61,398 nucleotides of DNA from a virus (Duplodnaviria > Caudoviricetes), in IMG/VR virus record IMGVR_UViG_3300029309_000028, positions 1 to 61,398 of that record, one strand, 5' to 3'. The position numbers and the translations under genes were made by a program. The notes beneath the pieces were generated by a model. It made no database searches. It saw only the letters and a program-made list of their open reading frames with translations, and was not told where the DNA came from. Shown here piece by piece: positions 10,515 to 52,807 of this stretch (the first letter of the stretch is position 1; each line of letters begins with the position of its first letter).

Positions 10515-11729
10515 ATGGCAATAGATTTTTTTGAAATAGGTAGAAGTGGTGCTAGTCGCACAAGAAAAATAGATTATTCTAAAGCGCTTGATCCACTTGC
10601 TAAAAAAATAGAAACAAGAGTAAAAGAGAGTAAAGCTAAAACAGAAGCTTTAATAAACTCTATGCCACAAGGTGTTGCTATTGATAAAGTACCAGAAGAA
10701 CTAAGAGGTCAAGTAACTGATTTTTTAGCTAAAAATAAAAAAGAGTACGTAGATGCTAGTAGAGTTATAGCTTCAGGTATAAGACCTACTGATCAAAGAT
10801 ATATAGATGCTATGTCTACTATTAACGGTGTAAATAATAAATTTCAAAACTTAAGTAATCAATTAGAAGATATAGCTTTAAAGAGACAAGCTGCTTTGGA
10901 CGGTAGAGATCACTCAAAAGGAGCTTTTGATTGGGAAATAAGTGATCATGAAGGTTTAGCAAATGGTAGTATGTATGCTAGTTTTTCATTACAAGATGAT
11001 GGTAGTTTTAACTACTTGTCAAACGATAGTAAAACTAAAAAGTGGAGTGATTATTCTAATACTTTTCAAACAAGCAGTGTTGGTCAAGAAGGTTTTGATG
11101 TTATTTTACAAAGAGCTAAACAAGATGGTAGATATGGTATAACTTACAACAAAAATACTTACAAAGGTTTATTTAAAAAATTAAGAGCAGATTTAAAAAC
11201 AGATGCTGGTAGAGACTTTTTATTTTCTGATGAAATATTTTTAGAAGAACAAACAGGTGAGAAGTTTGGTACACCAGAATACGAAAAAGCTGTAAGCGCT
11301 CTTCGTAATAAAGGTAACTTTGAAAATTTAATGAACGCTTACGAAAAACATGCTCTTAAAGAAATATTAAAAGTACATAAATCTGCTATTGACGCTTATG
11401 ATGATAGACAGGAAACGCGAAGTGGAAGTGGAAGTGGAAAAACTGAAAATAATCAAGCTTCAATTGAAGCTGCAAGAAGAGGTGATAAAATAATTAAAGT
11501 AGATAATTTTAACGTTGCTGTACAACAAAAAGATGGTTATACATATAAAATAGTTAAAAATAACGAAGCTTCTTTAAATTTAGATGATTATACTATTTCT
11601 TACAGTCAAGATGAATTAATCAAATTTTTTGGTGGTAAAATGGATTCTGATATGAGAAGATTTAAAAAATTAGAAGATACTTTAAATAAACAAGAAACTA
11701 AAGAAAAAGAGCTACCTGCAGGTGGTTAA
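10515..11729 (+). CDS. Internal virion/ejection protein (probable start MAIDFF at 10515)
   Basis: Helical, charged 404-aa ORF between ejection-type genes. Confidence 0.5.
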   Translation: MAIDFFEIGRSGASRTRKIDYSKALDPLAKKIETRVKESKAKTEALINSMPQGVAIDKVPEELRGQVTDFLAKNKKEYVDASRVIASGIRPTDQRYIDAMSTINGVNNKFQNLSNQLEDIALKRQAALDGRDHSKGAFDWEISDHEGLANGSMYASFSLQDDGSFNYLSNDSKTKKWSDYSNTFQTSSVGQEGFDVILQRAKQDGRYGITYNKNTYKGLFKKLRADLKTDAGRDFLFSDEIFLEEQTGEKFGTPEYEKAVSALRNKGNFENLMNAYEKHALKEILKVHKSAIDAYDDRQETRSGSGSGKTENNQASIEAARRGDKIIKVDNFNVAVQQKDGYTYKIVKNNEASLNLDDYTISYSQDELIKFFGGKMDSDMRRFKKLEDTLNKQETKEKELPAGG

Positions 11730-11739
11730 TAAATATAAT

Positions 11740-14700
11740 ATGTTTGAATTACAAGGCGATACATATACTTTAAAGGAGCTTGAAGACTTTGCTTCTCAAC
11801 AAAATTTAGACTTTGATAGTTTCATGTCTGATATGAAAACTAAAGGTTTAGTAGATAAAAGAGAGAAAGAAGATACAAAACAAGCTTTACCTTTTGGCGC
11901 TAAAGTAGCTGTAACAACTGGAAAAGCTTTTGAAACTGGCGTTGATGTTGCTACTGGTTTATCTAAAATAGTAAAAGATTTAATAACTGATGAAGAAGAA
12001 AGAGAAGAAACAAAACAAGCTTTAAAAAACCAATTTGATAACGTTCCTATTAAATTACGTAATACTTTTTTTAATCAAATACCTGCTGCTGTTGTTGATT
12101 TAACAACAAGAGATCTTACAGGTATGCAAAAACCAGAAGTTAGAGAAAAAGCTAGTGAGTTTTTAAAAAATAAGTATAAAGAAATAGATGTTGTAAATAA
12201 ATATTTAATAAAAGATACTGGTGAAGGTATTGTTAAAGGTATAAAGCAAGGTGATGCTTCAGATTTTGTAAGCGGTTTAGTTGGCGCTAACTTACAAATG
12301 GTAGAAACAGTAGTACCAGCTATGTTAACTGGAGGCGCTAGTTTACCTTTTCAAGTGATAGCGCCTATGTATACTGATTATAACATAACTAAAGCTGAAA
12401 ATTTATATGGTAAAAATGATCCTGAAGCTTTAAATAAGTTAATTAGCTCTGGTGAAACAGAAGTTGCAACGCCTTTAGCTTTAGGTCTTATTGCTACTGG
12501 TTTTGAATACATAGGGTTTAAAGGTATAACTAAATACATGCTAGGTAATCAAGCCGCTAGTAAAATGGCTTCAAATTTATTTTTTACAAATAACAGAGAA
12601 GGTGTAACTGAATTATTACAAAATGGTGTAGAAAGTATAAGCACGGCTAAAGCTCAAGGAAAAAGTGATGAAGATGCTATGCAAGAATTTTTTAAAGGTA
12701 TATTTAGCGAAGAAGGTTTAGAGTCATATTTAAATGGTTTTGTTGGAAGCGTTGGTATAAGTACAGCTGGTAGAGCTGTAAATAGAGCTTTAAGAACTGA
12801 TAAAGCTAGCGTGAAAGAAATAAATGAACAAATAAGTAATTTAGCTGAATTAAATTTAGCTAAAAACTCTACTAGAGATGCAGAAGTTAAAGAAGCTTTA
12901 GAACAAGAAATAGAACAAAAAGAACAAGATTTTAAAAAATATATAACTGATAAAAGAAAAGTATCAGAGCTTTTAAACAATGAGCAAAAAATAAATTTAG
13001 TAAATTTTGTTAAACAAAAAGACAATATTAGATCAAAAGCTGAGTCTTTAAAAAATAAATTAGAAAATAATCAGATTACTACAAAAGATTTTGGTTATGC
13101 TATAAGAAGTTTAAATAATCAAAGCAATAGAATAACTGAACAGATTGAGCTTATTAATGAAACAGCAAAAAAACAAACAGCTGTAAAAGCTGCTGAAGAC
13201 GTAAGTCAAATTATAAAAGAAACTGGTTTAGAAGGTGAAGTTACAGAATTATCTTCTGAAGAAATATCTAACTTAGACATAGAACAAGCAAAAGAAGCAT
13301 CTAAACAATTTGGTTTTATAGCTCAAAGAAAAGACGGTAGTTTTAATATAATTTTAAACGAAGATAAACCATCTCTTGGCACAGCTGCTCACGAATTAAT
13401 GCATGCTATATTATATAAAACTATAGGTGGTAATCAAGAACTACAAGACTCTATAGGTAGCGCTTTAACAAGTTTTGTTAATGACAAAAAAGGTGGCGTA
13501 AGCCAAGCTTTTATAAACCGTATGAAACCTTACATTAATGATAAAAACTTTGGAGAAGAAGTTATTACTGTTATGTCAGAGTCTATGCTTGATGGTAGTT
13601 TAAACTTTAACGAAAATTTATTTACAAAACTACGAGACTCTTTTAGAAGATTTTATCAAAAAATTACAAACAAAGACGTAGAGTTTAATACAGGTAGAGA
13701 TGTTTATAATTTTATAAAAGATTATAATAAAAGTATTAAAGAAGGTAAATTAAGTCCTAGAATATTAAAAGCTGCTACTGAAGGTGTTAAAGGTAAATTA
13801 GTTAAAGGTAAAGTTAAACCTGAAGATACCGTACAAATGTCTAAAGAAGCTTCTGATAATGTTCAAAGATTATATGATACTAAAGAAGCTAATTTTGAAG
13901 CTAAAATTATAAATGAGTTTAAGCCAATAGTAAGTCGTATAGTTGAAAGACGTAGTCAAGCACCTAACTTTGATAGAGAGTTATTAACTAGTGAAATAGA
14001 AATAGGTGAAAGAGGTGTATTAGATTTAATTAGAGATTATAAACCAGATTCAGGTGTACCTTTAGCTGCTTATATAAATAAGTTTTTACCAGCAAGAGCC
14101 ATAGAAGCTTCTAGACGTGTTTTAGGTGAAGAATTTACAGAAGACGTAACAGAGGCAAGAGGTGTTGAAGCTAGAGAAGAAACCGTTGAAGTTGAAACAA
14201 AACCAAAACCTAAAAAAATAGTTTTAGCTGATAGATTAAATGTTAAAAGTAAAGTTGATAAAGCTATAAAAGAACAATTACCAAAGCTAGACGTTAAAGA
14301 ATTAACGTTTAAAAAATTAAAAAACTTAGTACCTGATATTACTGGCGAAATGTTTGGTATAAGCTCTAGAAAATTAAAAACTTTAGCAAACATAACTAAA
14401 AAAGAGCTACAAGCTGCGCAAATGTTTATTAATAAAAATGCTGATTTGTTAATAGCAATGTTACCAGAAGGCTCTACAGTAAGTGGTACATCTACAGGTG
14501 TACCTAACACTTTATTAAAAGCTTTTTACACAAAAACAGATAGAGCTAAAATGGCTAAAACAGGTAGTACCTCTGGTTTAGCGATTCAAGTAAAAAATAA
14601 AATAAATAAAAAAGAGTTTTTAGAAGTTTTTGGTATTATTGATGGTAAACCACAACGTGATGATAGAAACACATCTGCTAGAGTGTTAGCGTTAGCTAAT

Positions 14701-17700
14701 TTAACTGGTAAAATGATGACTAATCAAACTGTGAGAGAAAATTTAGAGTTATTAGGTAATAGTGAGCAAACTATAAAAAACATTAGAGAAGGCGCTTCTA
14801 GTGTTATGTTTAATAAAGAAGCTGTTTTAGATATAGACTTAAATTTACCTGAATTAAATTTAAATGATCCTAAAAATAGTTTTGAAAATATTGATATATT
14901 TGTAGATAAAATAGCTTTACTCGCTACTTATGGTAAGCTTGGTATAATTAGAGCTGTTGATTTACGGTCTACAATTACTAATAGCGCTGCAAAAGAGTAT
15001 GTAAGAACAAATACTATATTTGAAGATTTAGGTTTATTTACAATTGATGGTAAAATACAAGGTAAAGAAGTAGATATAAAGTTTCAAAGACCTGATCAAA
15101 AAACAGTTTTAGGTAAAAACGTAAAAGAGATAACTAAAAAACAAGCTAGAGATTATAATAAAAACGGAAAAGCTAATTTTAATGATATGGTAAATATGAT
15201 TAAAAAAGCTATAGAAGCAAATCCTGATGATAAAATACTTCAAGCTGCTATAAAAAAATACTTACAAGCCGCGACTTACGACACGTCACACCCTTTAAGA
15301 CAAGGTGCTGAGTATATTGGAGGCGATGTTACTGCTACTGGCGAGATAAGATACGAGCATGCTGTTCAAGCTGCTACAGTAAGAGATTTATTACTAGATG
15401 TTTTAATAAATAGGCCAAAAGAGTTTAATAAAACAATGAAGGCTATACAAAAAAACTATAAACTAATAGCTTTATCTAAAAAAAATGATGATGCTTTAAA
15501 CTCTTCTAGTTATATAAACGAAAAAGGTGAAATAGTGTTTTACAGTAACGGTATGGGTGTTGGTTGGGATATTTTTATTGATAATTGGTTTGATAGATAT
15601 TTTAACACAGATGTTAATGTTATAGATCCTAATAATCTTAGATTAATTAAAAACGGTAAAACTTTTGCTCAAGAGTATGGTGTTACTATGTCTGGTAAAA
15701 TACCTGCTTTAAACAGTAGCGTTGCAAATGTAAAAATAATTGATAAAGCTATAAATAAAGGTAGATTACTTAGTTTTTCAAAAACACCAAAAGGTATTAG
15801 TATATTAGACTTTGATGATACACTAGCAACTACAGAGTCTTTAGTAAAGTATATAGCTCCAGATGGTAATACAGGTACTTTAAATGCAGAGCAATATGCT
15901 AGTACTTATGAAGATTTATTAGATCAAGGTTTTACTTTTGATTTTTCAGATTTTAATAGAGTTGTAAAAGGTAAATTAGCACCTCTGTTTAATAAAGCTT
16001 TAAAACTACAAAGCAAGTTTGGTCCAGAAAATATGTTTGTGTTAACAGCTAGACCACCTGCAGCGCAAAAACCTATATTTGACTTTTTAAAAGCAAACGG
16101 TTTAAATATACCTTTAAAAAATATAACTGGCTTAGGTAATAGTACTAGTGAAGCAAAAGCCTTATGGATAGCTGATAAAGTTGGTGAAGGTTATAATGAT
16201 TTTTATTTTGCTGATGATGCTTTACAAAACGTGCAGGCTGTAGATAACATGTTAGAGCAATTTGATGTTAAACGTAAAGTGCAGCAAGCTAAGTTACAGT
16301 TTAGTAAAGATTTAGACGGTGAGTTTAACAGTATAATAGAAGATGTAAAAGGTATAAAAGCTGAAAAAAGATATTCACAAGCTAAAGCTAGAAAACGTGG
16401 TGAAGGTAAAGGTAGATTTAGATTTTTTGTACCACCATCACATGAGGATCTTGTAGGTTTGTTGTATAACTTTATAGGTAAAGGCGCAAAAGGTAACAAG
16501 CATAGAGACTTTTTTGAAAAAGCTATAGTAAAACCATTAAACAGAGCTTATAACGAATTAAATATAGCTAAACAGTCTATAGCAAACGATTATAAAGCTT
16601 TAATAAAAGCTTTTCCAGATATAAGAAAAAAATTAACAAAGAAAACTCCTGACGGTGATTATTATTATTCTGATGCTGTAAGAGTTTATTTGTGGAATAA
16701 ATCAGGTTTTGATATACCTGGTATGTCAAAAACAGATGTACAAGAGTTAGTTGATTTAGTAACTAGTGATGGTGAATTACAAGCTTTTGCAGATAACATA
16801 GGTGTAATATCAAAACAAGAACAAGGTTATGTTGAACCTAGCGAGGAGTGGCAAGCTGGTGATATAAGAACTGATTTAGCAGATGCTACAGGTAGAGTTG
16901 GTAGAAAAAAGTTTTTTGCTGAGTTTATAGAAAATGCAGATGTAATATTTAATAAAGAAAATTTAAATAAAATAGAAGCTGCTTATGGTATTGATTTTAG
17001 AGAAGCTTTAGAAGATGTTTTATATAGAACTAAAACAGGTACAAATAGAACTGTAGGTCAAAATAAAATTGTTAATAGATTTTTAGATTATTTAAACGGA
17101 TCTATAGGTGCTACAATGTTTTTTAACGCAAGATCAGCTGTATTACAGACTATATCTACAGTTAACTTTATAAACTTTGGTGATAATAATATATTTGCAG
17201 CATCAAGAGCTTTTGCTAATCAAAAACAATTTTGGTCTGACTTTTCAATGTTGTTTAACTCTGACATGTTAAAACAAAGAAGAGCTGGAGTTGCTTTTGA
17301 TGTTAACGCAAATGAAATAGCTAACGCTGTTAGTAAATCAAAACAACCAGTTAGAGCTGCTATAAGATATTTATTACAAATAGGTTTTTTACCTACGCAG
17401 TTAGCTGATAGTTTTGCAATATCACTCGGTGGTGCTAGCATGTACAGAAATAGAGTTAACACTTATTTAAAACAAGGTTTAGAACAAAAAGAAGCAGAAA
17501 CAAAAGCGTTTAATGACTTTCAAGAAATATCTGAAAGCACACAGCAGTCAGCTAGACCTGATAAAATATCACAACAACAAGCTTCACCGCTTGGTCGTAT
17601 GATATTAGCTTTTCAAAACACACCATCACAGTATGTTAGATTAATGAAAAAAGCTGGTTTAGATTTAATTAATAGAAGAAAAACACCACCTTACGCTAAT

Positions 17701-18375
17701 CAAGCTAAAAGCGATATGTCAAATATATCTAAAATAATATATTATGGCGCTATACAAAATATTATATTTTACGGTTTACAATCAGCAATGTTCGCAATGT
17801 TATTTGACGATGATGAAAAAGATGAAGAGTTTTTTGAAAAGAAAAGAGATAGAATACTTAACGGTAGTTTAGATACTATATTAAGAGGTATGGGTGTTGG
17901 TGGTGCTGTTATATCAACTATAAAAAATACAGCTATAAAATACGCTGAAAATCAAAAGAAAGACTGGGGTAAAGAAGATAATGTTGTTATGATGGAAATG
18001 TTACAATTATCACCACCTATAGGTATTAAAGCTAGAAAACTAAGTAGTGCACAAAAAACTATGGATTTTAATAAAAAAGTAATTGAAGAAATGGACACGT
18101 TTGATATTGATAATCCAGTTTACAGCGCTATAGGTAATTTAATTGAAGCAACTACAAACATACCACTTGCTAGATTACATCGTAAAACAATGAATTTACG
18201 TGAAGCTGCTAACGCTGAAAATGAGTGGTGGCAAAGATTATCTATGGCACTTGGTTGGAGCCGTTGGGATGTTGGTGTAGAAAACAAAGAAGTTGAAGCT
18301 GTTAAAAAAGAAATAAAACAAAGAAACAAAACAAGAGGAAAAGCTAAAAGAAAAGCAACAAGAACAACTAGATAA
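11740..18375 (+). CDS. Giant multidomain (polyvalent) virion ejection protein: zincin HExxH peptidase, sigma70 region-2-like domain, possible His-Me nuclease-like domain, HAD phosphatase, helical C-terminus
   Basis: HELMH at 13390-13404; sigma-like segment at 13906-14118; DFDDT...LTAR...FADD HAD motifs at 15808-16218; ATG at 11740 is more plausible than GTG at 11722. Confidence 0.7.
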   Translation: MFELQGDTYTLKELEDFASQQNLDFDSFMSDMKTKGLVDKREKEDTKQALPFGAKVAVTTGKAFETGVDVATGLSKIVKDLITDEEEREETKQALKNQFDNVPIKLRNTFFNQIPAAVVDLTTRDLTGMQKPEVREKASEFLKNKYKEIDVVNKYLIKDTGEGIVKGIKQGDASDFVSGLVGANLQMVETVVPAMLTGGASLPFQVIAPMYTDYNITKAENLYGKNDPEALNKLISSGETEVATPLALGLIATGFEYIGFKGITKYMLGNQAASKMASNLFFTNNREGVTELLQNGVESISTAKAQGKSDEDAMQEFFKGIFSEEGLESYLNGFVGSVGISTAGRAVNRALRTDKASVKEINEQISNLAELNLAKNSTRDAEVKEALEQEIEQKEQDFKKYITDKRKVSELLNNEQKINLVNFVKQKDNIRSKAESLKNKLENNQITTKDFGYAIRSLNNQSNRITEQIELINETAKKQTAVKAAEDVSQIIKETGLEGEVTELSSEEISNLDIEQAKEASKQFGFIAQRKDGSFNIILNEDKPSLGTAAHELMHAILYKTIGGNQELQDSIGSALTSFVNDKKGGVSQAFINRMKPYINDKNFGEEVITVMSESMLDGSLNFNENLFTKLRDSFRRFYQKITNKDVEFNTGRDVYNFIKDYNKSIKEGKLSPRILKAATEGVKGKLVKGKVKPEDTVQMSKEASDNVQRLYDTKEANFEAKIINEFKPIVSRIVERRSQAPNFDRELLTSEIEIGERGVLDLIRDYKPDSGVPLAAYINKFLPARAIEASRRVLGEEFTEDVTEARGVEAREETVEVETKPKPKKIVLADRLNVKSKVDKAIKEQLPKLDVKELTFKKLKNLVPDITGEMFGISSRKLKTLANITKKELQAAQMFINKNADLLIAMLPEGSTVSGTSTGVPNTLLKAFYTKTDRAKMAKTGSTSGLAIQVKNKINKKEFLEVFGIIDGKPQRDDRNTSARVLALANLTGKMMTNQTVRENLELLGNSEQTIKNIREGASSVMFNKEAVLDIDLNLPELNLNDPKNSFENIDIFVDKIALLATYGKLGIIRAVDLRSTITNSAAKEYVRTNTIFEDLGLFTIDGKIQGKEVDIKFQRPDQKTVLGKNVKEITKKQARDYNKNGKANFNDMVNMIKKAIEANPDDKILQAAIKKYLQAATYDTSHPLRQGAEYIGGDVTATGEIRYEHAVQAATVRDLLLDVLINRPKEFNKTMKAIQKNYKLIALSKKNDDALNSSSYINEKGEIVFYSNGMGVGWDIFIDNWFDRYFNTDVNVIDPNNLRLIKNGKTFAQEYGVTMSGKIPALNSSVANVKIIDKAINKGRLLSFSKTPKGISILDFDDTLATTESLVKYIAPDGNTGTLNAEQYASTYEDLLDQGFTFDFSDFNRVVKGKLAPLFNKALKLQSKFGPENMFVLTARPPAAQKPIFDFLKANGLNIPLKNITGLGNSTSEAKALWIADKVGEGYNDFYFADDALQNVQAVDNMLEQFDVKRKVQQAKLQFSKDLDGEFNSIIEDVKGIKAEKRYSQAKARKRGEGKGRFRFFVPPSHEDLVGLLYNFIGKGAKGNKHRDFFEKAIVKPLNRAYNELNIAKQSIANDYKALIKAFPDIRKKLTKKTPDGDYYYSDAVRVYLWNKSGFDIPGMSKTDVQELVDLVTSDGELQAFADNIGVISKQEQGYVEPSEEWQAGDIRTDLADATGRVGRKKFFAEFIENADVIFNKENLNKIEAAYGIDFREALEDVLYRTKTGTNRTVGQNKIVNRFLDYLNGSIGATMFFNARSAVLQTISTVNFINFGDNNIFAASRAFANQKQFWSDFSMLFNSDMLKQRRAGVAFDVNANEIANAVSKSKQPVRAAIRYLLQIGFLPTQLADSFAISLGGASMYRNRVNTYLKQGLEQKEAETKAFNDFQEISESTQQSARPDKISQQQASPLGRMILAFQNTPSQYVRLMKKAGLDLINRRKTPPYANQAKSDMSNISKIIYYGAIQNIIFYGLQSAMFAMLFDDDEKDEEFFEKKRDRILNGSLDTILRGMGVGGAVISTIKNTAIKYAENQKKDWGKEDNVVMMEMLQLSPPIGIKARKLSSAQKTMDFNKKVIEEMDTFDIDNPVYSAIGNLIEATTNIPLARLHRKTMNLREAANAENEWWQRLSMALGWSRWDVGVENKEVEAVKKEIKQRNKTRGKAKRKATRTTR

Positions 18376-36885: not shown

Positions 36886-37617
36886 TTATAATGTTTTGCT
36901 TATGAAATACTGTTTAGGATCAAAGTCCTTGGTCTTGTAAAACAAGTCATAAGCTTCACTTGCTCTACGCACCTTATCTTCACCGCGTTCATAAAACTCA
37001 GGTGAACAGTCAAACACACCAATTTGATGTGTTGTTTTATCTATTACAACAAACACCATCTCATAACCAAACATTTTACTGTATATATAAGCTTGTGAAT
37101 CGTAATTGTATCTATTTGCTGACCATCTGAAACCTTCTATATCTGCGGTTGTTTTTAAGTCGATAACTAGTTTCTCATTGTGATTAACAATATCAGCTTT
37201 ACCTTTCCACGTATTATCAAACAATTGTATTATCCCAGGTTGTTCGTATTTGTTTTGTGTATCAACTATAAGATCTTTACATATATCGTTTGACATTATC
37301 TTGTCACGCATAAAAACTATATCATCAACTTCTTTTTGTAGCAAGCATAGCTCACCGCCAGACATATCTTTGTATACTTTGGTGTTTCTGGTTGCAGAAG
37401 GTATAACCTTAAACTTTTCGAGTTTATCTGGTTCAAGTATACACGTGTGGAAATAACCACCAACAAGAAATGCTGGCGAGGCTTTACTTGGCTCGTGAAG
37501 AGCTAACGGATTTTTGAGCAACGTTTTTATATCTGAGTTAGATAAGTACTGCTGGCCAAATTTACCGTAATAATCTTCGTCGTTACAAAGTCTTTGTAAG
37601 ATTTGTTCTTTGTTCAT
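36886..37617 (-). CDS. PD-(D/E)XK exonuclease (RecE/DUF3799-like)
   Basis: LSNSDIK, GGYFHTCILEP, KGKAD, IDLKTT, YDSQAYIY. Confidence 0.8.
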   Translation of the reverse strand: MNKEQILQRLCNDEDYYGKFGQQYLSNSDIKTLLKNPLALHEPSKASPAFLVGGYFHTCILEPDKLEKFKVIPSATRNTKVYKDMSGGELCLLQKEVDDIVFMRDKIMSNDICKDLIVDTQNKYEQPGIIQLFDNTWKGKADIVNHNEKLVIDLKTTADIEGFRWSANRYNYDSQAYIYSKMFGYEMVFVVIDKTTHQIGVFDCSPEFYERGEDKVRRASEAYDLFYKTKDFDPKQYFISKTL

Positions 37618-38203: not shown

Positions 38204-38959
38204 TTACAGAAAATCAATGACTTGCGAAGAGTCTACATTGTCTATAAGCTTTTGTATAGCTTGCTTTTTTAGTTGTGAAACACGTACGTAAGAGCTACTA
38301 CCGTTAATACCTATTTTGTTAGCTATTTCAGTCGCAGAGTGCTTAACACAGTCAAGGCCATAGCTCATACGTAATACATCATATTCTTTATTATCAAGAT
38401 GTAACTTAAGTATACTTAACAAATAACTATTTAACATAGCGTTATTGTACTTGTTAGAATCATCTGGTATTTGATATACATAGCTACTTTCACTTGCACC
38501 TACATCGTCTATACTAGCAAACACAGAGTTAAAAAATAACTCAACAGCTTTTTTACCATCGCCTTTACGTATTTCATTTAGTTTATGCTCAGGTATACGC
38601 ATGTTACCTCTGTTAATATCAATACCTCTACGTATTGCACCTTTTATACGCTTAGATAAAAACGACTTAATTGTTTTTTCTTGATCTTCAGATTCCATAA
38701 TAGTGTCCCAGTGTATTTTATCTACAGCTCTTATTAAGCCTGCAGAACCTTCTTGTATTAAATCGTTAATACTCATAACACCGCTAGCTTGTTGTGATGT
38801 TGCAAACTTACGCGCTAAGTTTTCTACAAGTGGCATGAACAATATTATTAGCTCATCTCTAGTATAATCTCTATAATCAAATTTTTGTGGTAATCTTTTA
38901 TAAGCTTGTTTTAAATCTTGCTTATATCTAATGTAGTTTTGTACATTATAACTTTTCAT
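38204..38959 (-). CDS. Phage-encoded sigma70-family RNA polymerase sigma factor
   Basis: Region 2: PLVENLARKF...DLIQEGSAGLIRAVDK...RIKGAIRR; region 4: LDNKEYDVLRMSYGL...TEIANKIGI...RVSQLKKQAIQKL. Confidence 0.9.
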   Translation of the reverse strand: MKSYNVQNYIRYKQDLKQAYKRLPQKFDYRDYTRDELIILFMPLVENLARKFATSQQASGVMSINDLIQEGSAGLIRAVDKIHWDTIMESEDQEKTIKSFLSKRIKGAIRRGIDINRGNMRIPEHKLNEIRKGDGKKAVELFFNSVFASIDDVGASESSYVYQIPDDSNKYNNAMLNSYLLSILKLHLDNKEYDVLRMSYGLDCVKHSATEIANKIGINGSSSYVRVSQLKKQAIQKLIDNVDSSQVIDFL

Positions 38960-41052: not shown

Positions 41053-41084
41053 TATTATCCGTCATCGTTCGTATTATCTTTGTA
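41053..41084 (-). promoter_or_regulatory. Early promoter motif, copy 6
   Basis: Minus strand TACAAA-N5-TACGA-N8-GGATAATA. Confidence 0.8.
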
Positions 41085-41417
41085 TTTATTAATTAGTTGT
41101 TCTGGTTTACCTACAAATATACATTTTAAATCTTCAGCACAACCATAACCTTCAAATATACTTATCCAAGTTTCTTTGAGTGGATGTTGCCATACATAAT
41201 AACAATATTCTAAATCACAATGTCTTGTAGATAAAAAATCTATTTCCCAGTTAGTTATTTTTGCACTATCTAATATTGATTTAGCTATTTCTATACCTCT
41301 ATGCTCAGGATAACCATCCCAATGTGCGTAAAATTGTGCGTCAAAACTATCCGGATGCTCACTAAACGATACTCCGTCTTCACGTTTAGCAAATCTTATT
41401 ATACTTCTTGTTGCCAT
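41055..41417 (-). CDS. Hypothetical phage protein (MATRS...HWDGYP family)
   Basis: Motif recognition. Confidence 0.6.
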   Translation of the reverse strand: MATRSIIRFAKREDGVSFSEHPDSFDAQFYAHWDGYPEHRGIEIAKSILDSAKITNWEIDFLSTRHCDLEYCYYVWQHPLKETWISIFEGYGCAEDLKCIFVGKPEQLINKYKDNTNDDG

Positions 41418-41418
41418 A

Positions 41419-41709
41419 TTATTCTTGTATTGGTGTTACGTCTTTTACATCATAGTAATGAGCTTGTAACGAAGTTATTATATGTCTACCAGTTGCAGTA
41501 TGAAAACCATAGCTATGTGTATGTAGCGGTGGTATTGCATCGTTAAAGCATAATAGCTTTAGCATATCTAGTGGCTTATCATAATTTAGTTCATCAGATA
41601 TATCATTGCAAGCTGCGGCTAGTGCTTTATGACAATGCCTGATTGGTTCATCTGAGCGTTGCTTTAAATATTTAAGTACAAACTCTGGTGTAAGGTATTT
41701 TTTATTCAT
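41419..41709 (-). CDS. Hypothetical early protein
   Basis: ORF directly downstream of an early promoter motif. Confidence 0.6.
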   Translation of the reverse strand: MNKKYLTPEFVLKYLKQRSDEPIRHCHKALAAACNDISDELNYDKPLDMLKLLCFNDAIPPLHTHSYGFHTATGRHIITSLQAHYYDVKDVTPIQE

Positions 41710-41720
41710 AATTTTTATTT

Positions 41721-41752
41721 TATTATCCGTTAGTTATCGTATTTAATTTGTA
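41721..41752 (-). promoter_or_regulatory. Early promoter motif, copy 5
   Basis: Minus strand TACAAA-N5-TACGA-N8-GGATAATA. Confidence 0.8.
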
Positions 41753-41845
41753 AAAAAGAGACAGGCAAGCGAGTAATATCGCCTTTATCTAATGAAAGAC
41801 CTAGCATACACTCCTCGCGCCTTGCCTCTTTGAAAACAATGCTAA

Positions 41846-42031
41846 CTAAGCATCTTGATAGCTACCATACCTTTCGTATAGAGCTTTGTAATTTGACATT
41901 ATTGCTATTATTTTAGCTCTGTTTAATCCAGAGTAGTCTGATACTACTGATACATTAAACATATTAGTTACGCCTGATTGTCTTACGTCTTCGTAAGCAT
42001 TAAAATCATCTTGAGTTATTTCTATTGTCAT
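41846..42031 (-). CDS. Small phage protein (VRQSGVTNMF; DUF5049-like)
   Basis: Motif recognition. Confidence 0.55.
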   Translation of the reverse strand: MTIEITQDDFNAYEDVRQSGVTNMFNVSVVSDYSGLNRAKIIAIMSNYKALYERYGSYQDA

Positions 42032-42062
42032 ATTTATTTAATTTAATTAGTTATACATTGAT

Positions 42063-42197
42063 TTACTTGTACCAAACACCGTAAACTTTAACACCTCTAA
42101 CATCTTTTATAAGTACTCGTTTGATTACTTCTTTTTCAGTTAACTGGCTTTTGTCCATGTATTTTGGATTTTTGCTATTTAGTTTTCTTTTTTTCAT
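42063..42197 (-). CDS. Hypothetical 44-aa basic protein (not in ORF track)
   Basis: MKKRKLNSKNPKY...; A-rich leader. Confidence 0.45.
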   Translation of the reverse strand: MKKRKLNSKNPKYMDKSQLTEKEVIKRVLIKDVRGVKVYGVWYK

Positions 42198-42271
42198 ATC
42201 ATTTACTTTTATAAAAGCAGTATAAGTGCCGTTCAGTACGAGCCTAGGAGATACTTACTAGTGCACTTATA

Positions 42272-42481
42272 TTACCTTAACATTGTACCATAACCTTTGC
42301 GGCGAGTTAACTTAGCGATACGTGCTGCGTCACTTGCCGACATAATCTGGATAGAGTTACCAGTTTTATGATAAGTGATTGGCGCACAGCCATATTGCTC
42401 GACAGTAGAACAGTTAACGCAAGTTTTGTAGCCAAGATTAACTCTGCCTGCAGGTATTATATTATTACATTTACATTTCAT
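42272..42481 (-). CDS. C4 zinc-finger protein, DksA/TraR-finger-like
   Basis: CKC..IPAGR......CVNCS. Confidence 0.6.
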   Translation of the reverse strand: MKCKCNNIIPAGRVNLGYKTCVNCSTVEQYGCAPITYHKTGNSIQIMSASDAARIAKLTRRKGYGTMLR

Positions 42482-42497
42482 TGTTGTTATTTGTATA

Positions 42498-42529
42498 TAT
42501 TATCCAATAGCAATCGTATTTAGTTTGTA
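42498..42529 (-). promoter_or_regulatory. Early promoter motif, copy 4
   Basis: Minus strand TACAAA-N5-TACGA-N8-GGATAATA. Confidence 0.8.
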
Positions 42530-42530
42530 A

Positions 42531-42716
42531 TTATAAATAGTTTATGCTATTGTCTTCATGACACATCCACTCACAGCTATTTAAGTTGTGACCTTTGGCT
42601 ACTAAGTAGCCTTGCACGTTACCGTCATCTGGAGTCCAACCATCTGCACTTATATCGTACATATATACTTGACCTTTTTCAAAGTCTAATACTGTTAAGT
42701 AATTCATTTTTTCCAT
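42531..42716 (-). CDS. Hypothetical early protein
   Basis: ORF with A-rich leader. Confidence 0.55.
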   Translation of the reverse strand: MEKMNYLTVLDFEKGQVYMYDISADGWTPDDGNVQGYLVAKGHNLNSCEWMCHEDNSINYL

Positions 42717-42843
42717 ATTGTTTTATGTTTAAATTTTCTGTTATACTTCTTTTTATTAACAAACACAGAGCTGCCTGGTGGTCTTACACCTTGTTCGAGA
42801 TCTACTCGCCGTTTGACAGCTCGTTTGTGCTTGTTATTTAGTT

Positions 42844-43302
42844 TCATATTACTTTATATTTATGCCCATCTATTGTTACTGTTACTTCATTTGGCATTTC
42901 AGGTGCTATCTCGCCCATCATCTTTTCTTGCATGTCATACTTCCACTTCGGTATAAATCTACCACTTGATAACATGTTAGCTTGATTAATGTAATAGTTT
43001 TTGAGACAAAAGGCTATTAAATATTCTAATCTATCTGATTCGTTTGGTATTAGTATACGCTTTATACACATAAAATCTTTATAACCTGACGGTACTTTTT
43101 TAGTTTTATTTAGTTGCCAACTCGGCGAATAACCATTTGCTTTAGTACGTCTTACGTAACCACTAACAAAACTTGCTACATATATTGGTTTACCATGCTG
43201 GTCTTTTATTGGTAGCTTAAATTCACGCGTACCGTTTTTACTTTGTTGTTTAGTTGTAACTTCTTGAATACCAAGTAGTTGCATTGTTTGTTTTATGTTC
43301 AT
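42844..43302 (-). CDS. Hypothetical early protein (start MNIKQ at 43302; the longer call runs into the tRNA)
   Basis: The upstream extension overlaps tRNA-Ala. Confidence 0.6.
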   Translation of the reverse strand: MNIKQTMQLLGIQEVTTKQQSKNGTREFKLPIKDQHGKPIYVASFVSGYVRRTKANGYSPSWQLNKTKKVPSGYKDFMCIKRILIPNESDRLEYLIAFCLKNYYINQANMLSSGRFIPKWKYDMQEKMMGEIAPEMPNEVTVTIDGHKYKVI

Positions 43303-43318
43303 ATTTACTTTTATTTTG

Positions 43319-43392
43319 TGGAGAATATCGGAGTCGAACCGATGACCTCTTGCGTGCAAAGCAAGCGCTCTAGCCAACTGAGCTAATCCCCC
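43319..43392 (-). tRNA. tRNA-Ala(UGC), CCA not encoded
   Basis: GGGGGATTAGCTCAGTTGGCTAGAGCGCTTGCTTTGCACGCAAGAGGTCATCGGTTCGACTCCGATATTCTCCA; cloverleaf with G3:U70. Confidence 0.95.
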
Positions 43393-43400
43393 ATTGTAGT

Positions 43401-43562
43401 TTAATCTAATCCATCTCTGTTGTTATTAGGCCAAGCAGCAGGTGGATTATTTGCTTTACGCTGCTTTTCCATTTGTATCATAGCATATATTGCTTGAGCT
43501 TCAGAGCTACTTTGTTTAGTTACTTTGTATTTTTCTTTATTTTGCTTTTTATTCTGCGACAT
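43401..43562 (-). CDS. Hypothetical 53-aa protein (start MSQNK)
   Basis: ATG at 43562 overlaps the upstream ORF end. Confidence 0.45.
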   Translation of the reverse strand: MSQNKKQNKEKYKVTKQSSSEAQAIYAMIQMEKQRKANNPPAAWPNNNRDGLD

Positions 43563-43722
43563 AAGTGAAACCTTTATAGTTAAACCATTGAGTAACATAC
43601 GAGAAACCATCTTCATCGACTTGACCAAACCTAGTGTCAGCAAGTTGACAAATAGTGTATGGTTTATATAGTATGTTGTTTAGTATTATTTTATTGTTTT
43701 TTAGAAATTTAATTTTATTCAT
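43549..43722 (-). CDS. Hypothetical 57-aa early protein (not in ORF track)
   Basis: MNKIKFLKNNKII...; ATG 15 nt downstream of promoter copy 3. Confidence 0.6.
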   Translation of the reverse strand: MNKIKFLKNNKIILNNILYKPYTICQLADTRFGQVDEDGFSYVTQWFNYKGFTYVAE

Positions 43723-43737
43723 ATTGTTATTTATTAT

Positions 43738-43769
43738 TATTATCCAACTTTATTCGTAATTAATTTGTA
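43738..43769 (-). promoter_or_regulatory. Early promoter motif, copy 3
   Basis: Minus strand TACAAA-N5-TACGA-N8-GGATAATA. Confidence 0.8.
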
Positions 43770-43948
43770 ATTAGTTCACTATGTTTGTATTCTATACTTT
43801 CACCACAGTCCCATAAAGCGTGCGCAGTTTCTTTATCACAACACTTTATTGGTTCTTGCTTTTTAGTTTTACAAGAAGTTATTAACATTAGTGAAATAAT
43901 TAATATTATTATTATTTCTGCACTATATTTTTCTTTAATTTTACTCAT
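43760..43948 (-). CDS. Small early lipoprotein
   Basis: Hydrophobic stretch ending in lipobox LITSC. Confidence 0.6.
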   Translation of the reverse strand: MSKIKEKYSAEIIIILIISLMLITSCKTKKQEPIKCCDKETAHALWDCGESIEYKHSELITN

Positions 43949-43964
43949 AGTTATTATATTTTAG

Positions 43965-44018
43965 TAGTAGTGGTGAGAATCGAACTCACATATCACATTG
44001 ATATTACCATTGACTACT
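43965..44018 (-). ncRNA. Minimal tRNA-like RNA (acceptor stem plus canonical T-arm, no D-stem)
   Basis: AGTAGT-C-AATGGTA-ATATCA(ATG)TGATAT-GTGAG(TTCGATT)CTCAC-C-ACTACT-A. Confidence 0.6.
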
Positions 44019-44124
44019 TTTACTTGTTCACATTTTTTATAAGTCGCTAAACAAAGCGTAACTACGACTTGACCCACCACTCGCTAATAGGCACTTCACG
44101 AGTGGTTATTTAGAGCCTGAGTTA

Positions 44125-44352
44125 TTATACTAGCTCGATATTTCTAACTGACATTGGTATGTTATTAGTTGCAGTGTAACTTTTATACTTTAACCAACAT
44201 GGCATTACACTTAGTTTATCTTTCATAACTTCCCACACTTTGTCGTGATTATAAGTTACTGTGTCACCTTTTTTGTTTACAAATTCGATTACTTGATTTT
44301 TACCGATTAGAGACTTTCTTACAACAAATCTCTTAGATTTTAATATATTCAT
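44125..44352 (-). CDS. Hypothetical first early protein
   Basis: Downstream of two early promoter copies. Confidence 0.65.
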   Translation of the reverse strand: MNILKSKRFVVRKSLIGKNQVIEFVNKKGDTVTYNHDKVWEVMKDKLSVMPCWLKYKSYTATNNIPMSVRNIELV

Positions 44353-44389
44353 AGTTGTTTATTTTTATTTAGTTATACATTGTTTATTA

Positions 44390-44421
44390 TATTATCCACA
44401 TTACTTCGTATTACATTTGTA
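44390..44421 (-). promoter_or_regulatory. Early promoter motif, copy 2
   Basis: Minus strand TACAAA-N5-TACGA-N8-GGATAATA. Confidence 0.8.
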
Positions 44422-44514
44422 AAAGTATATTAATTGTTTAGTTATAAATTTACTTGTGTATGTATTGCCCTCAACTTCATTGTGTGTAATAATTATTTTT
44501 TTTATTTACATATA

Positions 44515-44546
44515 TATTATCCACAATAAGTCGTAATTGTTTTGTA
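44515..44546 (-). promoter_or_regulatory. Early promoter motif, copy 1
   Basis: Minus strand TACAAA-N5-TACGA-N8-GGATAATA. Confidence 0.8.
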
Positions 44547-44743
44547 AAAAAACGTAAAATATATTAGAAAAATATAAATGATAGTACATGTGTAAACTGA
44601 TATAATCAGAGCAATCACGAAAACATTAATGGCAAAACGGAAAAAACAGGTGGGGCCCGGTTTTAATAAAGTACTTTTGTATATACGCGCGTAGTGCAGC
44701 GTAGTGGCGCAAGTCTCTACTCCAATATTTATAACGATTTTTT

Positions 44744-52021: not shown

Positions 52022-52217
52022 TATTGGTAAAGATTATAAAAATGATGCTATGCATTATGCTGTTGGTCAAGAAGTTTACGGTGGACATACTATTTGTGAT
52101 ATAATAGAAGAAGAAGATAAGTTTTCAATATATATTAGAAAAAACAAAGATGTGTTGCCATGGAAAGACTTTAACAAAAACATGGCTGTATCTGTAGAAT
52201 ATAATCTAGAATACTAA
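51996..52217 (+). CDS. Hypothetical protein (start MARLIRK)
   Basis: ATG at 51996. Confidence 0.55.
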   Translation: MARLIRKISIGKDYKNDAMHYAVGQEVYGGHTICDIIEEEDKFSIYIRKNKDVLPWKDFNKNMAVSVEYNLEY

Positions 52218-52807
52218 TGAAAAGCGTTTACAACTTTGTTGTAAAGCCAATAGGTAAAAGATATAATAACGTAAAGAAGGTTGGAAATAAAGAGTTAATT
52301 ATTAACACTGAGATCTTCAACCATCAATACGTTAATAGACAAGCGACTGTAATATCGAAACCTATTATTGGTGATACAGATATAAATGTAGGTAGTGATA
52401 TTATATTACACCACAACGTGTTTAGACGCTGGTATAATGTGAAAGGTATAGAGAAAAATAGTAAGAACTATTTTAATGAAGATACTTATATTGTTTATCC
52501 AGATCAAATATTTTTGTATAAAAAGTTTTGGCAGTGGCACTCACCAAAAGGTTTTTGCTGGGTTAAACCTATAAAAAACAAAGATAAATACGCTAATAGC
52601 GAAACACAAGAAAATATTGGTATTATAAAATATACTGACGGTAGTTTTAAAGTTAATGATCTTGTAGGTTTTACACCTATATCTAATTACGAGTTTGTTA
52701 TTGATGGTGAGCTACTATATAGAGTATATACTAAATTTATTACAATTAAATATGAATATCAAGGAGACGAAGAAACTTATAATCCAAGCTGGGCACAGAG
52801 CAGTTGA
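52217..52807 (+). CDS. Tandem GroES-like (co-chaperonin-like) protein
   Basis: Two FVVKPI/CWVKPI...G.I.....VG.. repeats resembling Cpn10 folds. Confidence 0.5.
   Translation: MKSVYNFVVKPIGKRYNNVKKVGNKELIINTEIFNHQYVNRQATVISKPIIGDTDINVGSDIILHHNVFRRWYNVKGIEKNSKNYFNEDTYIVYPDQIFLYKKFWQWHSPKGFCWVKPIKNKDKYANSETQENIGIIKYTDGSFKVNDLVGFTPISNYEFVIDGELLYRVYTKFITIKYEYQGDEETYNPSWAQSS

What the first reader, a model, noticed from the sequence alone, without database searches (positions are those of the whole stretch)
13831..14820. Candidate new system: a sigma-factor-like domain inside the giant ejected virion polyprotein, which could start early transcription
Seen: residues ~729-799 of the 2217-aa ORF (13906-14118) read IINEFKPIVSRIVERR..FDRELLTSEIEIGERGVLDLIRDYKPDSGVPLAAYINKFLPARAIEASRR. 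By eye this aligns with sigma70 region 2 of the FliA/ECF type (LI..YLPLV..IARR...DDLIQ.G..GLL.AI..FDP.RG..F..YA...I...I....R). A weaker HTH-like segment, ITGEMFGISSRKLKTL (~14338-14385), could be region 4. Known: podoviruses eject large core proteins, and N4 and crAss-like phages eject a complete RNA polymerase. I see no RNAP motifs in this protein. Inference: this phage injects a sigma-like specificity module that redirects host RNAP core to six non-canonical early promoters. Early transcription would then produce the stand-alone sigma (38204-38959) for middle/late genes. I know of no described cascade that starts from a virion-borne sigma.
Basis: partly seen in the sequence, partly recalled or inferred. 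Interest (0 to 1): 0.88.

Follow-up and report, generated by a model that had tools for sequence, protein, structure and literature searches.

The report
Sigma-like module in giant virion protein
A giant protein that this marine phage probably injects with its DNA contains a very diverged copy of the part of bacterial sigma factors that grips RNA polymerase, which hints at a new way for a virus to take over host transcription.

Summary
The quoted sequence is at the stated coordinates, inside a 2217-aa ORF (11722-18375). By synteny with Cellulophaga and Flavobacterium podophages, this ORF sits where those phages have a giant virion structural protein.

Curated models (Pfam, PHROGs, PDB sequences) give no sigma hit. 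Four other lines agree that aa ~725-803 form a highly diverged sigma-70 region-2 (sigma2) domain:
- AlphaFold2 plus Foldseek: 43 of 48 listed PDB rows are sigma entries, and phage sigmas top the viral library.
- Language-model features point to Sigma70_r2.
- Weak NCBIfam hits recur and are almost all sigma factors.
- Profile-profile alignment to Bacteroidota sigma2 scores 24.9, against a maximum of 13.6 in 100 shuffles.

The proposed region 4 has only weak profile support and no fold support. It lies inside a compact domain with no match among solved structures.

The module follows an HExxH peptidase-like motif. It occurs in at least 490 clusters of giant marine phage proteins, and some relatives carry SLT or Zeta-kinase domains ("polyvalent protein" style).

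A seven-copy promoter-like motif and a stand-alone sigma co-occur with the module, so co-occurrence cannot show which factor reads the motif.

RNA polymerase binding, virion packaging and the proposed cascade are untested inferences.

The parts
11722..18375 (+). Giant ORF, 2217 aa: putative virion/ejected polyvalent protein that carries the module
   Evidence: ORF list and translation. It lies downstream of virion structural genes, in the position of phi38:1 gp101 and elemovirus gp20, both annotated 'structural protein'. There are 909 homologues of 1219-3880 aa.
13390..13581 (+). HExxH motif (HELMH, aa 557) and a downstream Glu-rich helix (GEEVITVMSE, aa 611): zincin-like metallopeptidase signature
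   Evidence: Read from the sequence. An HExxH lies a median of 157 aa upstream of the N-domain in 202 of 210 giants that have the N-domain. No Pfam model matches this stretch, so it rests on the motif only.
13843..14130 (+). N-domain (aa 708-803): diverged sigma-70 region-2-like helical domain. The sigma2-equivalent helices are at about nt 13894-14124.
   Evidence: AF2 block-mean pLDDT is 75-90. Foldseek PDB and BFVD top hits are sigma factors. ESM features point to Sigma70_r2. NCBIfam gives weak sigma hits. hhalign against Bacteroidota sigma2 is supported by shuffle controls. It is the best-conserved part of the region: mean identity 65% against 51% for the C-domain, and N>C in 51 of 57 pairs.
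14131..14217 (+). Charged, disordered linker (aa 804-832)
   Evidence: pLDDT is below 50 for residues 101-126 of the fragment. The sequence varies across the alignments.
14239..14463 (+). Candidate degenerate sigma4-like HTH (aa 840-914), the first part of the C-domain
   Evidence: hhalign against the post-region-2 part of 30 Bacteroidota sigmas: score 20.6, P 0.013, shuffle maximum 12.8. A collinear alignment of fragment residues 6-211 to ECF sigma positions 7-183 was obtained. There is no fold support and no atlas hit. Inconclusive.
14464..14820 (+). Rest of the C-domain (aa 915-1033): alpha/beta subdomain with invariant G, T and Y (GTSTGVP...FYTK); function unknown
   Evidence: The AF2 model of the whole C-domain has pLDDT 87.3 and pTM 0.86. 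The best PDB Foldseek match has E 0.86 and prob 0.12. Invariant columns are listed.
38204..38959 (-). Stand-alone sigma-70-family factor (251 aa) with regions 2 and 4
   Evidence: Pfam r2 7.2e-5 and r4 1.2e-3, both below cut-off. phrog_351 1.7e-19. NCBIfam sigma70-ECF superfamily model 50.8 bits, above the 42.9 cut-off. It is conserved in relatives that carry the module.
41055..44546 (-). Six co-oriented copies of a promoter-like motif, read on the minus strand as TACAAA-N5-TACGA-N8-GGATAA. Plus-strand spans: 41055-41084, 41723-41752, 42500-42529, 43740-43769, 44392-44421, 44517-44546. A seventh copy lies at 37230-37259.
   Evidence: The core pattern gives 7 matches against 0.07 expected; 0 of 100 shuffles reach 7. 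All copies point the same way as the genes. In 4 copies an ATG that opens a 57-96 aa ORF follows 13-18 nt after GGATAA.

Best explanation
Shown by computation: residues ~708-803 of the 2217-aa protein form a highly diverged member of the sigma-70 region-2 (sigma2) fold. A disordered charged linker follows, then a compact 200-aa domain whose first ~70 residues may be a degenerate sigma4-like helix-turn-helix. The module lies ~150 aa after an HExxH peptidase-like motif. It is conserved in hundreds of giant proteins of uncultured marine podophages. These proteins also carry variable effector-type domains.

Inferred:
- The giant protein is packaged in the capsid and ejected with the DNA, as are the giant structural proteins in the same gene position of Cellulophaga phage phi38:1 and the elemoviruses.
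- In the cytoplasm the sigma2-like domain, perhaps cut free by the neighbouring peptidase, docks on the beta-prime clamp helices of host RNA polymerase, as sigma region 2.2 does.
- Because ejected proteins are few per virion (recalled from T7 and N4), it would act locally on the entering genome. It would recruit or re-aim one or a few polymerases to start early transcription, and possibly to help draw the DNA in, rather than titrate all cellular polymerase.
- Whether it reads the seven-copy TACAAA-N5-TACGA-N8-GGATAA motif is open.
For: Fold:
- AF2 model from a 62-row alignment: mean pLDDT 79.8, N-domain block means 75-90.
- Foldseek against PDB: 43 of 48 listed rows are sigma factors or sigma-containing complexes. 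They include sigma2-only structures: SigE N-terminal domain TM 0.67 and rmsd 2.6 over 74 columns; RpoS region 1.2-2 TM 0.62; sigmaE region 2 TM 0.62.
- Foldseek against BFVD: after one distant homologue (3.1e-9), the next hits are phage sigma factors at E 4e-3 to 4e-2, prob 0.9-1.0.
- Internal negative control: the C-domain model returns no sigma.

Sequence:
- ESM features: 24 of 30 named hits are in the Sigma70_r2 set, score 0.95.
- NCBIfam: 10 of the 13 families hit by 39 members at E<=1 are sigma factors (SigI in 20 of 39, best E 0.0068). The window's domain aligns aa 15-96 to SigI model positions 20-98.
- hhalign of the broadened profile against sigma2: score 24.9, P 3.4e-4, collinear 22-95 to 24-91. 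The reversed control scores 7.4. Shuffles give mean 7.8, max 13.6, and 0 of 100 reach the real score.
- One source (JGI) names a fragment of a homologue 'DNA-directed RNA polymerase specialized sigma subunit'.

Context:
- Structural-module synteny.
- HExxH upstream in 202 of 210 giants.
- Homologues carry an N-terminal SLT domain or a Zeta-type kinase domain, which fits the polyvalent-protein pattern (PMC5512222, passages read).
- The N-domain is the most conserved part of the region.
Against: - No curated model reaches significance: Pfam and PHROGs on the protein and the fragment, the six-frame Pfam r2 search, and the 25 of 36 families listed for 62 members.
- A profile of the 62-row alignment against PDB sequences gives 5 hits at E<=10, none a sigma.
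- Two earlier hhalign runs were negative: Prob 1.35 against the phage sigma family and Prob 0.4-1.2 against Bacteroidota sigma2 with the narrow profile. The positive run was therefore the third attempt, and it depended on adding 13 variant segments.
- All Foldseek E-values against sigmas are weak (PDB best 7.8e-3; none <=0.001), and sigma entries are highly redundant in PDB.
- The model breaks the region-2.2-equivalent helix at G-x-R-G, and only some of the aromatic positions of region 2.3 are kept.
- Nothing here shows virion packaging, ejection, proteolytic release or RNA polymerase binding.
- No cultured relative carries the module.
Confidence: 0.5

Rival explanations
1. The sigma2-like domain is an injected decoy. 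It occupies the sigma-docking site on beta-prime to block host sigma and shut off host transcription, and it does not direct initiation on phage DNA.
For: The same fold evidence applies. Sigma4 is doubtful, so the module may lack full promoter-recognition capacity. The phage already encodes a complete sigma for its own promoters.
Against: Ejected proteins are present in only a few copies per virion (recalled from T7 and N4), too few to titrate cellular polymerase. The strong conservation of the region-2.3/2.4-equivalent helix VPLAAYINKFLPxRxIEA suggests more than clamp-helix binding.
Confidence: 0.15
2. The domain descends from or resembles sigma2 but no longer touches RNA polymerase. It serves the giant protein itself, for instance as an accessory or substrate-positioning domain of the adjacent HExxH peptidase, as a DNA-end binder, or as a packing or ejection element.
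For: It lies at a fixed distance after the HExxH motif in 202 of 210 giants. It always sits inside giant proteins: all 150 listed representatives and 120 listed homologues. The C-domain is a compact fold with no PDB match. Variant N-domains occupy the same slot.
Against: The N-domain is conserved more strongly than its neighbours. That fits a conserved external target better than an internal structural role. Polyvalent proteins typically string together independently acting effector domains (PMC5512222, passages).
Confidence: 0.2
3. The sigma likeness is coincidental: a generic four-helix bundle that prediction and search tools pull toward the very abundant sigma entries.
For: No curated model is significant. 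Foldseek E-values are weak. The atlas notes that a third of shuffled proteins also get ten same-family hits, and that nothing was measured for parts of proteins.
Against: Four methods of different kinds converge on the same family and the same region in collinear order. Shuffle and reversal controls fail to reproduce the hhalign score. The C-domain, put through the same fold-prediction and Foldseek steps, gives no sigma.
Confidence: 0.1

Closest known systems
Sigma-70 family region 2 (sigma2; Pfam PF04542), as in ECF, FliA/WhiG, SigI and SigK-type factors
   Same: The predicted helical fold and the order of the region 2.1-2.4 helices match. Profile similarity is collinear, and the G-x-x-G-hydrophobic and aromatic-x-P...G...Y patterns are shared with the phage's own sigma.
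   Different: It is below every curated threshold. It is embedded at aa ~708-803 of a 2217-aa virion-type protein instead of being a free 20-70 kDa factor. The region-2.2-equivalent helix is interrupted in the model. Sigma4 is doubtful, and an extra 120-aa alpha/beta subdomain follows.
Phage T4 gp55, a minimal late sigma consisting essentially of a sigma2-like domain (recalled, not tested here)
   Same: It shows that a phage sigma2-only protein can dock on the beta-prime clamp helices and read a single -10-type element. That is what the module would do if sigma4 is absent.
   Different: gp55 is a free, late-expressed protein that needs gp33 and the sliding clamp. Here the domain is part of a presumed ejected structural protein that would be present before any gene expression. 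No sequence or fold comparison with gp55 was made.
Virion RNA polymerases of N4-like (Schitoviridae) and crAss-like phages
   Same: In both cases a giant virion protein is ejected with the DNA to start early transcription. N4-like polymerases are always fused to zincin-like peptidase domains (PMC5512222 passages; N4 ejectosome abstracts seen in the listing).
   Different: No polymerase domain or motif was detected here. Only a specificity-subunit-like module is present, so the host core enzyme would be needed.
Polyvalent proteins of phages and conjugative elements (Iyer et al. 2017, PMC5512222)
   Same: It is a giant multidomain protein in a virion gene block. It has an HExxH peptidase motif and interchangeable effector domains in homologues (SLT, Zeta-type kinase).
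   Different: The main text of that paper has no occurrence of 'sigma'. A sigma-like domain is therefore not among the domains discussed there. Its supplementary domain lists could not be seen.
Giant terminal structural proteins of Cellulophaga phage phi38:1 (gp101, 5076-nt gene) and Flavobacterium elemoviruses (gp20, 11085-nt gene)
   Same: They occupy the same gene position, at the end of the structural module after the homologue of window ORF 2132-7897.
   Different: There is no detectable sequence similarity to the window's protein. No hit of the N- or C-domain profiles was found in the fetched structural-module stretches of the two genomes. These phages also lack the stand-alone sigma family and the motif.

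Membership tests
Sigma-70 family, region 2 domain (PF04542) | Match to the curated family model above its gathering score | tested here: not met
   There is no Sigma70_r2 hit for the giant protein, the fragment or the N-domain at E up to 1-10. The six-frame search of the window finds only the stand-alone sigma. No sigma family is among the 25 listed for 62 members.
Sigma-70 family, region 2 domain (PF04542) | Sigma2 fold: helical bundle with the region 2.1, 2.2 and 2.3/2.4 helices in order | tested here: met
   Tested on a predicted model only. Foldseek top hits in PDB and BFVD are sigma factors, with TM 0.62-0.67 to sigma2-only structures.
Sigma-70 family, region 2 domain (PF04542) | Sequence-profile relatedness to sigma2 | tested here: inconclusive
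   Negative with narrow profiles. Positive with the broadened profile: score 24.9, P 3.4e-4, and 0 of 100 shuffles reach it. Sub-threshold NCBIfam sigma hits recur.
Sigma-70 family, region 2 domain (PF04542) | Binds the beta-prime clamp helices of core RNA polymerase | not testable with these tools
   This needs a binding assay or a structure of the complex.
Sigma-70 family, region 2 domain (PF04542) | Recognises and melts the -10 promoter element through region 2.3/2.4 residues | not tested
   Only a by-eye note was made: a conserved Tyr, Phe and an invariant Arg lie in the last helix. No structural residue mapping was done.
Complete sigma factor of ECF-like architecture (sigma2-linker-sigma4) | Sigma4 helix-turn-helix domain after a linker | tested here: inconclusive
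   hhalign gives score 20.6, P 0.013, above all 50 shuffles, and there is a collinear 6-211 to 7-183 alignment. However, the C-domain model finds no sigma by Foldseek, there is no atlas hit, and in the model the first sigma4 helix is coil and the recognition helix is interrupted.
Complete sigma factor of ECF-like architecture (sigma2-linker-sigma4) | Encoded as a free, dissociable subunit | tested here: not met
   The module is internal to the 2217-aa ORF. All listed relatives are giant proteins or fragments. Release by proteolysis is conjecture.
Polyvalent proteins (Iyer et al. 2017) | Several unrelated domains in one large polypeptide of a phage or conjugative element | tested here: met
   The protein has an HExxH motif, the sigma2-like domain, the C-domain without a PDB match and a HAD-like motif set. 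Homologues swap in SLT and Zeta-type kinase domains.
Polyvalent proteins (Iyer et al. 2017) | Zincin-like metallopeptidase domain (HExxH plus a downstream Glu) | tested here: inconclusive
   The motifs are present and positionally conserved in 202 of 210 giants. No family model matches the stretch.
Polyvalent proteins (Iyer et al. 2017) | Delivered into the host with the DNA | not testable with these tools
   Only position in the structural gene block and analogy support this.
Virion RNA polymerase (N4-like or crAss-like) | RNA polymerase catalytic domain | tested here: not met
   No polymerase family or solved polymerase matches the 2217-aa protein.

The most novel reading that the evidence does not exclude
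The module is a working, virion-borne ECF-like sigma: sigma2, a linker, a degenerate sigma4 and an added DNA- or protein-binding subdomain. It enters the cell with the genome, is cut free by the adjacent peptidase, and loads host core RNA polymerase onto the TACAAA-N5-TACGA-N8-GGATAA promoters. This starts a cascade that then produces the phage's stand-alone sigma. The variant N-domains seen in the same slot of related giants would be alternative specificities. This would be a third way, besides packaged polymerases and packaged polymerase-modifying enzymes, for a phage to control the first round of transcription.
Probability: 0.2. Interest if true: 0.9.

Novelty: new variant of a known kind. 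Interest (0 to 1): 0.7.

Why it matters
Known phages secure their first transcripts in one of three ways. They use host holoenzyme promoters, they inject a whole RNA polymerase (N4, crAss-like, phiKZ-like), or they inject enzymes that modify the host polymerase (T4 Alt). A sigma-type specificity domain carried in the particle would be a cheaper fourth route: bring only the targeting subunit and borrow the host core.

The family is large: 909 clusters at 90% identity and 490 at 50%. It comes from marine metagenomes, and its kin infect Flavobacteriia, which are major degraders of algal carbon.

The result also adds a transcription-factor-type domain to the repertoire of polyvalent proteins. It provides a well-defined 100-aa fragment and a candidate promoter, so the idea can be tested directly in vitro.

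No description of a virion-borne or ejected sigma-like domain was found in six full-text searches or in the main text of the polyvalent-protein paper.

Tried and rejected
- Nearest neighbours: megablast and tblastn of the giant gene, the giant protein and the fragment against 50,697 phage records gave no match.
- PHROGs and Pfam on the giant protein and five sub-segments gave nothing above threshold. The only lead was a weak DUF2608 hit (E 0.002) on the HAD-like stretch. A PDB sequence search of that stretch gave nothing relevant.
- Profiles of the N- and C-domains against six-frame ORFs of the structural-module stretches fetched from phi38:1 and elemoC gave nothing.
- The atlas search with the C-domain gave no usable hit.
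- Complex prediction with the N-domain (alignment) and residues 225-360 of a Flavobacteriaceae MAG beta-prime returned 'no answer': median score 0.31 against a mark of 0.32. It is not used for or against binding.
- Natural-swap idea: record G007 carries a divergent N-domain and no motif cluster. Its contig breaks inside the early region, so it says nothing. A search for more records with that variant found only G007 itself.
- Co-occurrence across 30 related or kindred records cannot separate the module from the stand-alone sigma.
- A domain-order-swapped control showed that the full-length ECF alignment score is carried by the sigma4-like block alone. That alignment is therefore not independent evidence for sigma2.
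- The first motif pattern was written with the wrong spacer and found nothing. It was corrected.
- The N4/crAss-type virion polymerase reading was considered and rejected, because no polymerase domain is present.

Full report
What the window is. The window is one whole IMG/VR virus record of 61,398 bases, estimated 97% complete. On the plus strand it encodes GroEL, GroES, large terminase, portal, capsid-type and other 'virion structural' proteins, then a 1921-aa structural protein, and then the 2217-aa ORF 11722-18375. On the minus strand it encodes small early-type ORFs, a ligase, a 251-aa sigma factor, Erf, an exonuclease, primase-helicase, thymidylate synthase, MazG, a resolvase and ribonucleotide reductase. 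No RNA polymerase was seen in the ORFs scanned. The 1921-aa protein is 31-35% identical to structural proteins of Flavobacterium elemoviruses and Cellulophaga phages phi38:1 and phi40:1. In those phages the same gene block ends with a giant gene (5076 nt in phi38:1, 11085 nt in elemoC) annotated 'structural protein'. The window's giant ORF holds that position but has no detectable similarity to any of 50,697 phage records.

The observation.

The family. The 351-aa stretch (aa 690-1040) around the flagged region has 909 relatives at E<=0.001 among proteins of 1219-3880 aa. The 120 listed are 64-100% identical over it. An exhaustive phmmer search of 1.84 billion cluster representatives found 490 (154 at E<=1e-30). 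All 150 listed are giant proteins or fragments of them. Scans of viral contigs gave 42 and then 245 relatives, of which 80 were kept. From these I built a 62-row alignment, A2, after dropping L116, which has four in-frame stops.

The region is two domains. An N-domain (fragment residues ~5-100) and a C-domain (~130-330) are joined by a charged linker predicted to be disordered. The N-domain is the better conserved: mean identity to the window is 65% against 51%, and it is higher in 51 of 57 pairs.

Is the N-domain sigma-like? Negative results come first.
- Pfam and PHROGs give no sigma family for the protein, the fragment or the N-domain.
- A six-frame Pfam Sigma70_r2 search of the window finds only the stand-alone sigma.
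- None of the 25 families listed (36 in all) for the 62 members is a sigma family.
- The A2 profile against PDB sequences gives 5 hits at E<=10, none a sigma.
- hhalign of A2 against the phage's own sigma family gives Prob 1.35, although it aligns the right segment.
- A narrow N-domain profile against 30 sigma2 segments, taken from three Bacteroidota MAGs reached through loci, gives Prob 0.4-1.2.

Positive results.
- (i) An AlphaFold2 model from A2 (mean pLDDT 79.8) searched with Foldseek against PDB returns 155 matches at E<=10, none at E<=0.001. Of the 48 rows listed, 43 are sigma factors or sigma-containing complexes. For the three RsiG-WhiG rows the output does not say which chain is which. 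Sigma2-only structures match with TM 0.62-0.67 normalised to the target (SigE N-terminal domain: rmsd 2.6 over 74 columns).
- (ii) The viral library gives one distant giant homologue first (3.1e-9) and then phage sigma factors (E 4.4e-3 upward, prob up to 1.00). At least 13 of the 50 rows are named sigma factors, and many rows carry no name.
- (iii) Language-model features of residues 1-105 put 24 of 30 named hits in the Sigma70_r2 set at score 0.95. The tool says shuffled proteins reach that score about once in 100, with the caveat that this was not calibrated for parts of proteins.
- (iv) In NCBIfam at E<=1, the 39 members of an N-domain alignment hit 13 families, of which 10 are sigma factors: SigI in 20 of 39 members (best E 0.0068), SigK in 8, FliA/WhiG in 5, and others. 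The window's domain aligns residues 15-96 to SigI model positions 20-98. All of these hits are far below the curated cut-offs.
- (v) I broadened the profile with 13 variant N-domains taken from giants that keep the C-domain but lack the canonical N-domain. hhalign against the Bacteroidota sigma2 alignment then gave score 24.9, P 3.4e-4, Prob 37.8, collinear over 22-95 to 24-91. The reversed target scored 7.4. One hundred column shuffles gave mean 7.8, sd 1.5 and max 13.6. This was my third profile-profile attempt and should be discounted accordingly. The genuine phage sigma scored 36.2 in the same test.
- (vi) One source names a fragment of a homologue a 'specialized sigma subunit'.
Together these make a diverged sigma2 domain likely. 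I put it at about 0.85.

Region 4 and the C-domain. Modelled alone, the C-domain is a confident compact alpha/beta domain (pLDDT 87.3, pTM 0.86). It has no convincing PDB match: the best is E 0.86 at prob 0.12, and none of the 46 listed rows is a sigma. It also has no atlas hit. The phage sigma control scores 32.5. A2 aligns collinearly to 25 ECF-size sigmas over 6-211 to 7-183, with score 19.3 and 0 of 100 shuffles reaching it. A domain-swap control shows that this score comes from the sigma4-like block alone. In the model the first sigma4 helix is coil and the recognition helix is interrupted. I call region 4 inconclusive, at about 0.4-0.45.

Architecture and context. An HExxH lies upstream of the N-domain in 202 of 210, at a median of 157 aa. 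With finer profiles, 176 have N plus the sigma4-like part plus the tail, 11 have N plus the sigma4-like part, 23 have N only, and 14 have the sigma4-like part plus the tail behind a non-canonical N-domain. Those variant N-domains fall into several sequence classes, and four are remotely related to the canonical one. Examples can be read in G007 and L038. Homologues carry an N-terminal SLT lytic transglycosylase domain, a Zeta-type kinase domain (at aa 1441-1596 of the 2557-aa P0080; the window's protein has HAD-like motifs at aa 1361-1500), and a short DUF5763. This is the pattern of 'polyvalent proteins': giant injected multidomain proteins whose commonest hub domain is a zincin-like peptidase thought to process them, and to which N4-like virion polymerases are always fused (PMC5512222, passages read). 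The main text of that paper never mentions sigma.

The promoter-like motif. The core TTATCC-N8-YCGTA occurs 7 times against 0.07 expected. All copies are in one orientation, six lie between 41055 and 44546, and one lies at 37230. Read in the sense of the genes it is TACAAA-N5-TACGA-N8-GGATAA. In four copies an ATG opening a 57-96 aa ORF follows 13-18 nt later. It is a good promoter candidate, but nothing ties it to the module.
- Three complete relatives carry the module, the stand-alone sigma and the motif (6, 7 and 3 copies; 0 in the reversed-pattern control).
- phi38:1 and elemoC lack all three.
- In 25 further records the sigma is found in 12 (8 of the 9 that are at least 90% complete) and the motif in 10 (7 of those 9). 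The misses are mostly in incomplete records.
- G007, which has a divergent N-domain and no motif cluster, turned out to break inside the early region.

Mechanism. Shown: the fold-level and profile-level sigma2 likeness, the domain layout, the conservation and the gene context. Inferred from what sigma region 2 does in all sigma-70 factors (established knowledge): the domain binds the beta-prime clamp helices. Inferred from gene position and polyvalent-protein biology: the protein arrives with the DNA and may be cut by its own peptidase. Inferred from the low copy number of ejected proteins (recalled): it acts locally on the entering genome, recruiting or re-aiming host polymerase, rather than as a global inhibitor. 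The rivals are a decoy/shut-off role, a role unrelated to polymerase, and chance likeness.

Comparison and novelty. It works like, and probably descends from, sigma2. It is not a member by any curated threshold and is not a free subunit. It is not a virion RNA polymerase. It fits the polyvalent-protein class and adds a new kind of domain to it. Six literature searches found no virion-borne or ejected sigma-like domain. I rate it a new variant of a known kind (virion-delivered takeover of transcription), with interest 0.7. The bold reading, an injected working sigma that starts the cascade, stays open at about 0.2.

Noticed in passing
window 41055-44546 and 37230-37259 (minus-strand sense): Seven co-oriented copies of TACAAA-N5-TACGA-N8-GGATAA lie just upstream of small early ORFs, against 0.07 expected for the core pattern. 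The motif is conserved in related complete genomes, with 3-9 copies.
   Followed up: partly
window 43318-43392 (-): A tRNA-Ala (anticodon TGC) lies among the small early ORFs (ARAGORN; Rfam 67.9 bits).
   Followed up: yes
window ~44600-44730: A G+C-rich non-coding island sits in an otherwise A+T-rich early/divergent region, between the last motif copy and the strand switch. No Rfam family matches at E<=0.1. It could be a genome end, an origin or a small RNA.
   Followed up: partly
window 15802-16221 (aa 1361-1500 of the giant ORF): A HAD-phosphatase-like motif set is present (DxDxT, a downstream T, and a DD motif). The only model support is a weak DUF2608 hit (E 0.002, below cut-off). The homologue P0080 has a Zeta-type kinase domain at aa 1441-1596, which suggests a variable effector slot.
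   Followed up: partly
L028 9770-10150 (record G007); L038 9980-10330; 13 giants: Divergent, non-canonical N-domains occupy the same slot before the conserved C-domain. They fall into several sequence classes, and four are remotely related to the canonical N-domain. They may be alternative specificities.
   Followed up: partly
window 45405-46976 and 52217-52807 (+): The phage encodes its own GroEL (phrog_5725, 1.1e-135) and a GroES-like co-chaperonin. phi38:1 and the elemoviruses also encode GroES.
   Followed up: no
record G026 3695-4444 and 64909-65658: One complete relative carries two copies of the stand-alone sigma gene near its two ends. This could be a terminal repeat or a true duplication.
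   Followed up: no
proteins P0388, P0389, P0234, P0412: Short gene calls (107-178 aa) containing the N-domain lie on long contigs (19-86 kb). They could be split or frameshifted forms of the giant gene, or free-standing N-domains. They were not examined.
   Followed up: no
loci L127-L150: Contigs encoding the phage-type sigma are binned into MAGs labelled as many unrelated phyla, including archaea. This is most likely phage contigs mis-binned. One lies on a 117-kb Flavobacteriaceae contig.
   Followed up: no
window 17734-17805 (aa 2005-2028): There is a single strongly hydrophobic segment near the C-terminus of the giant protein. It may be a membrane-inserting element of an ejection protein.
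   Followed up: no
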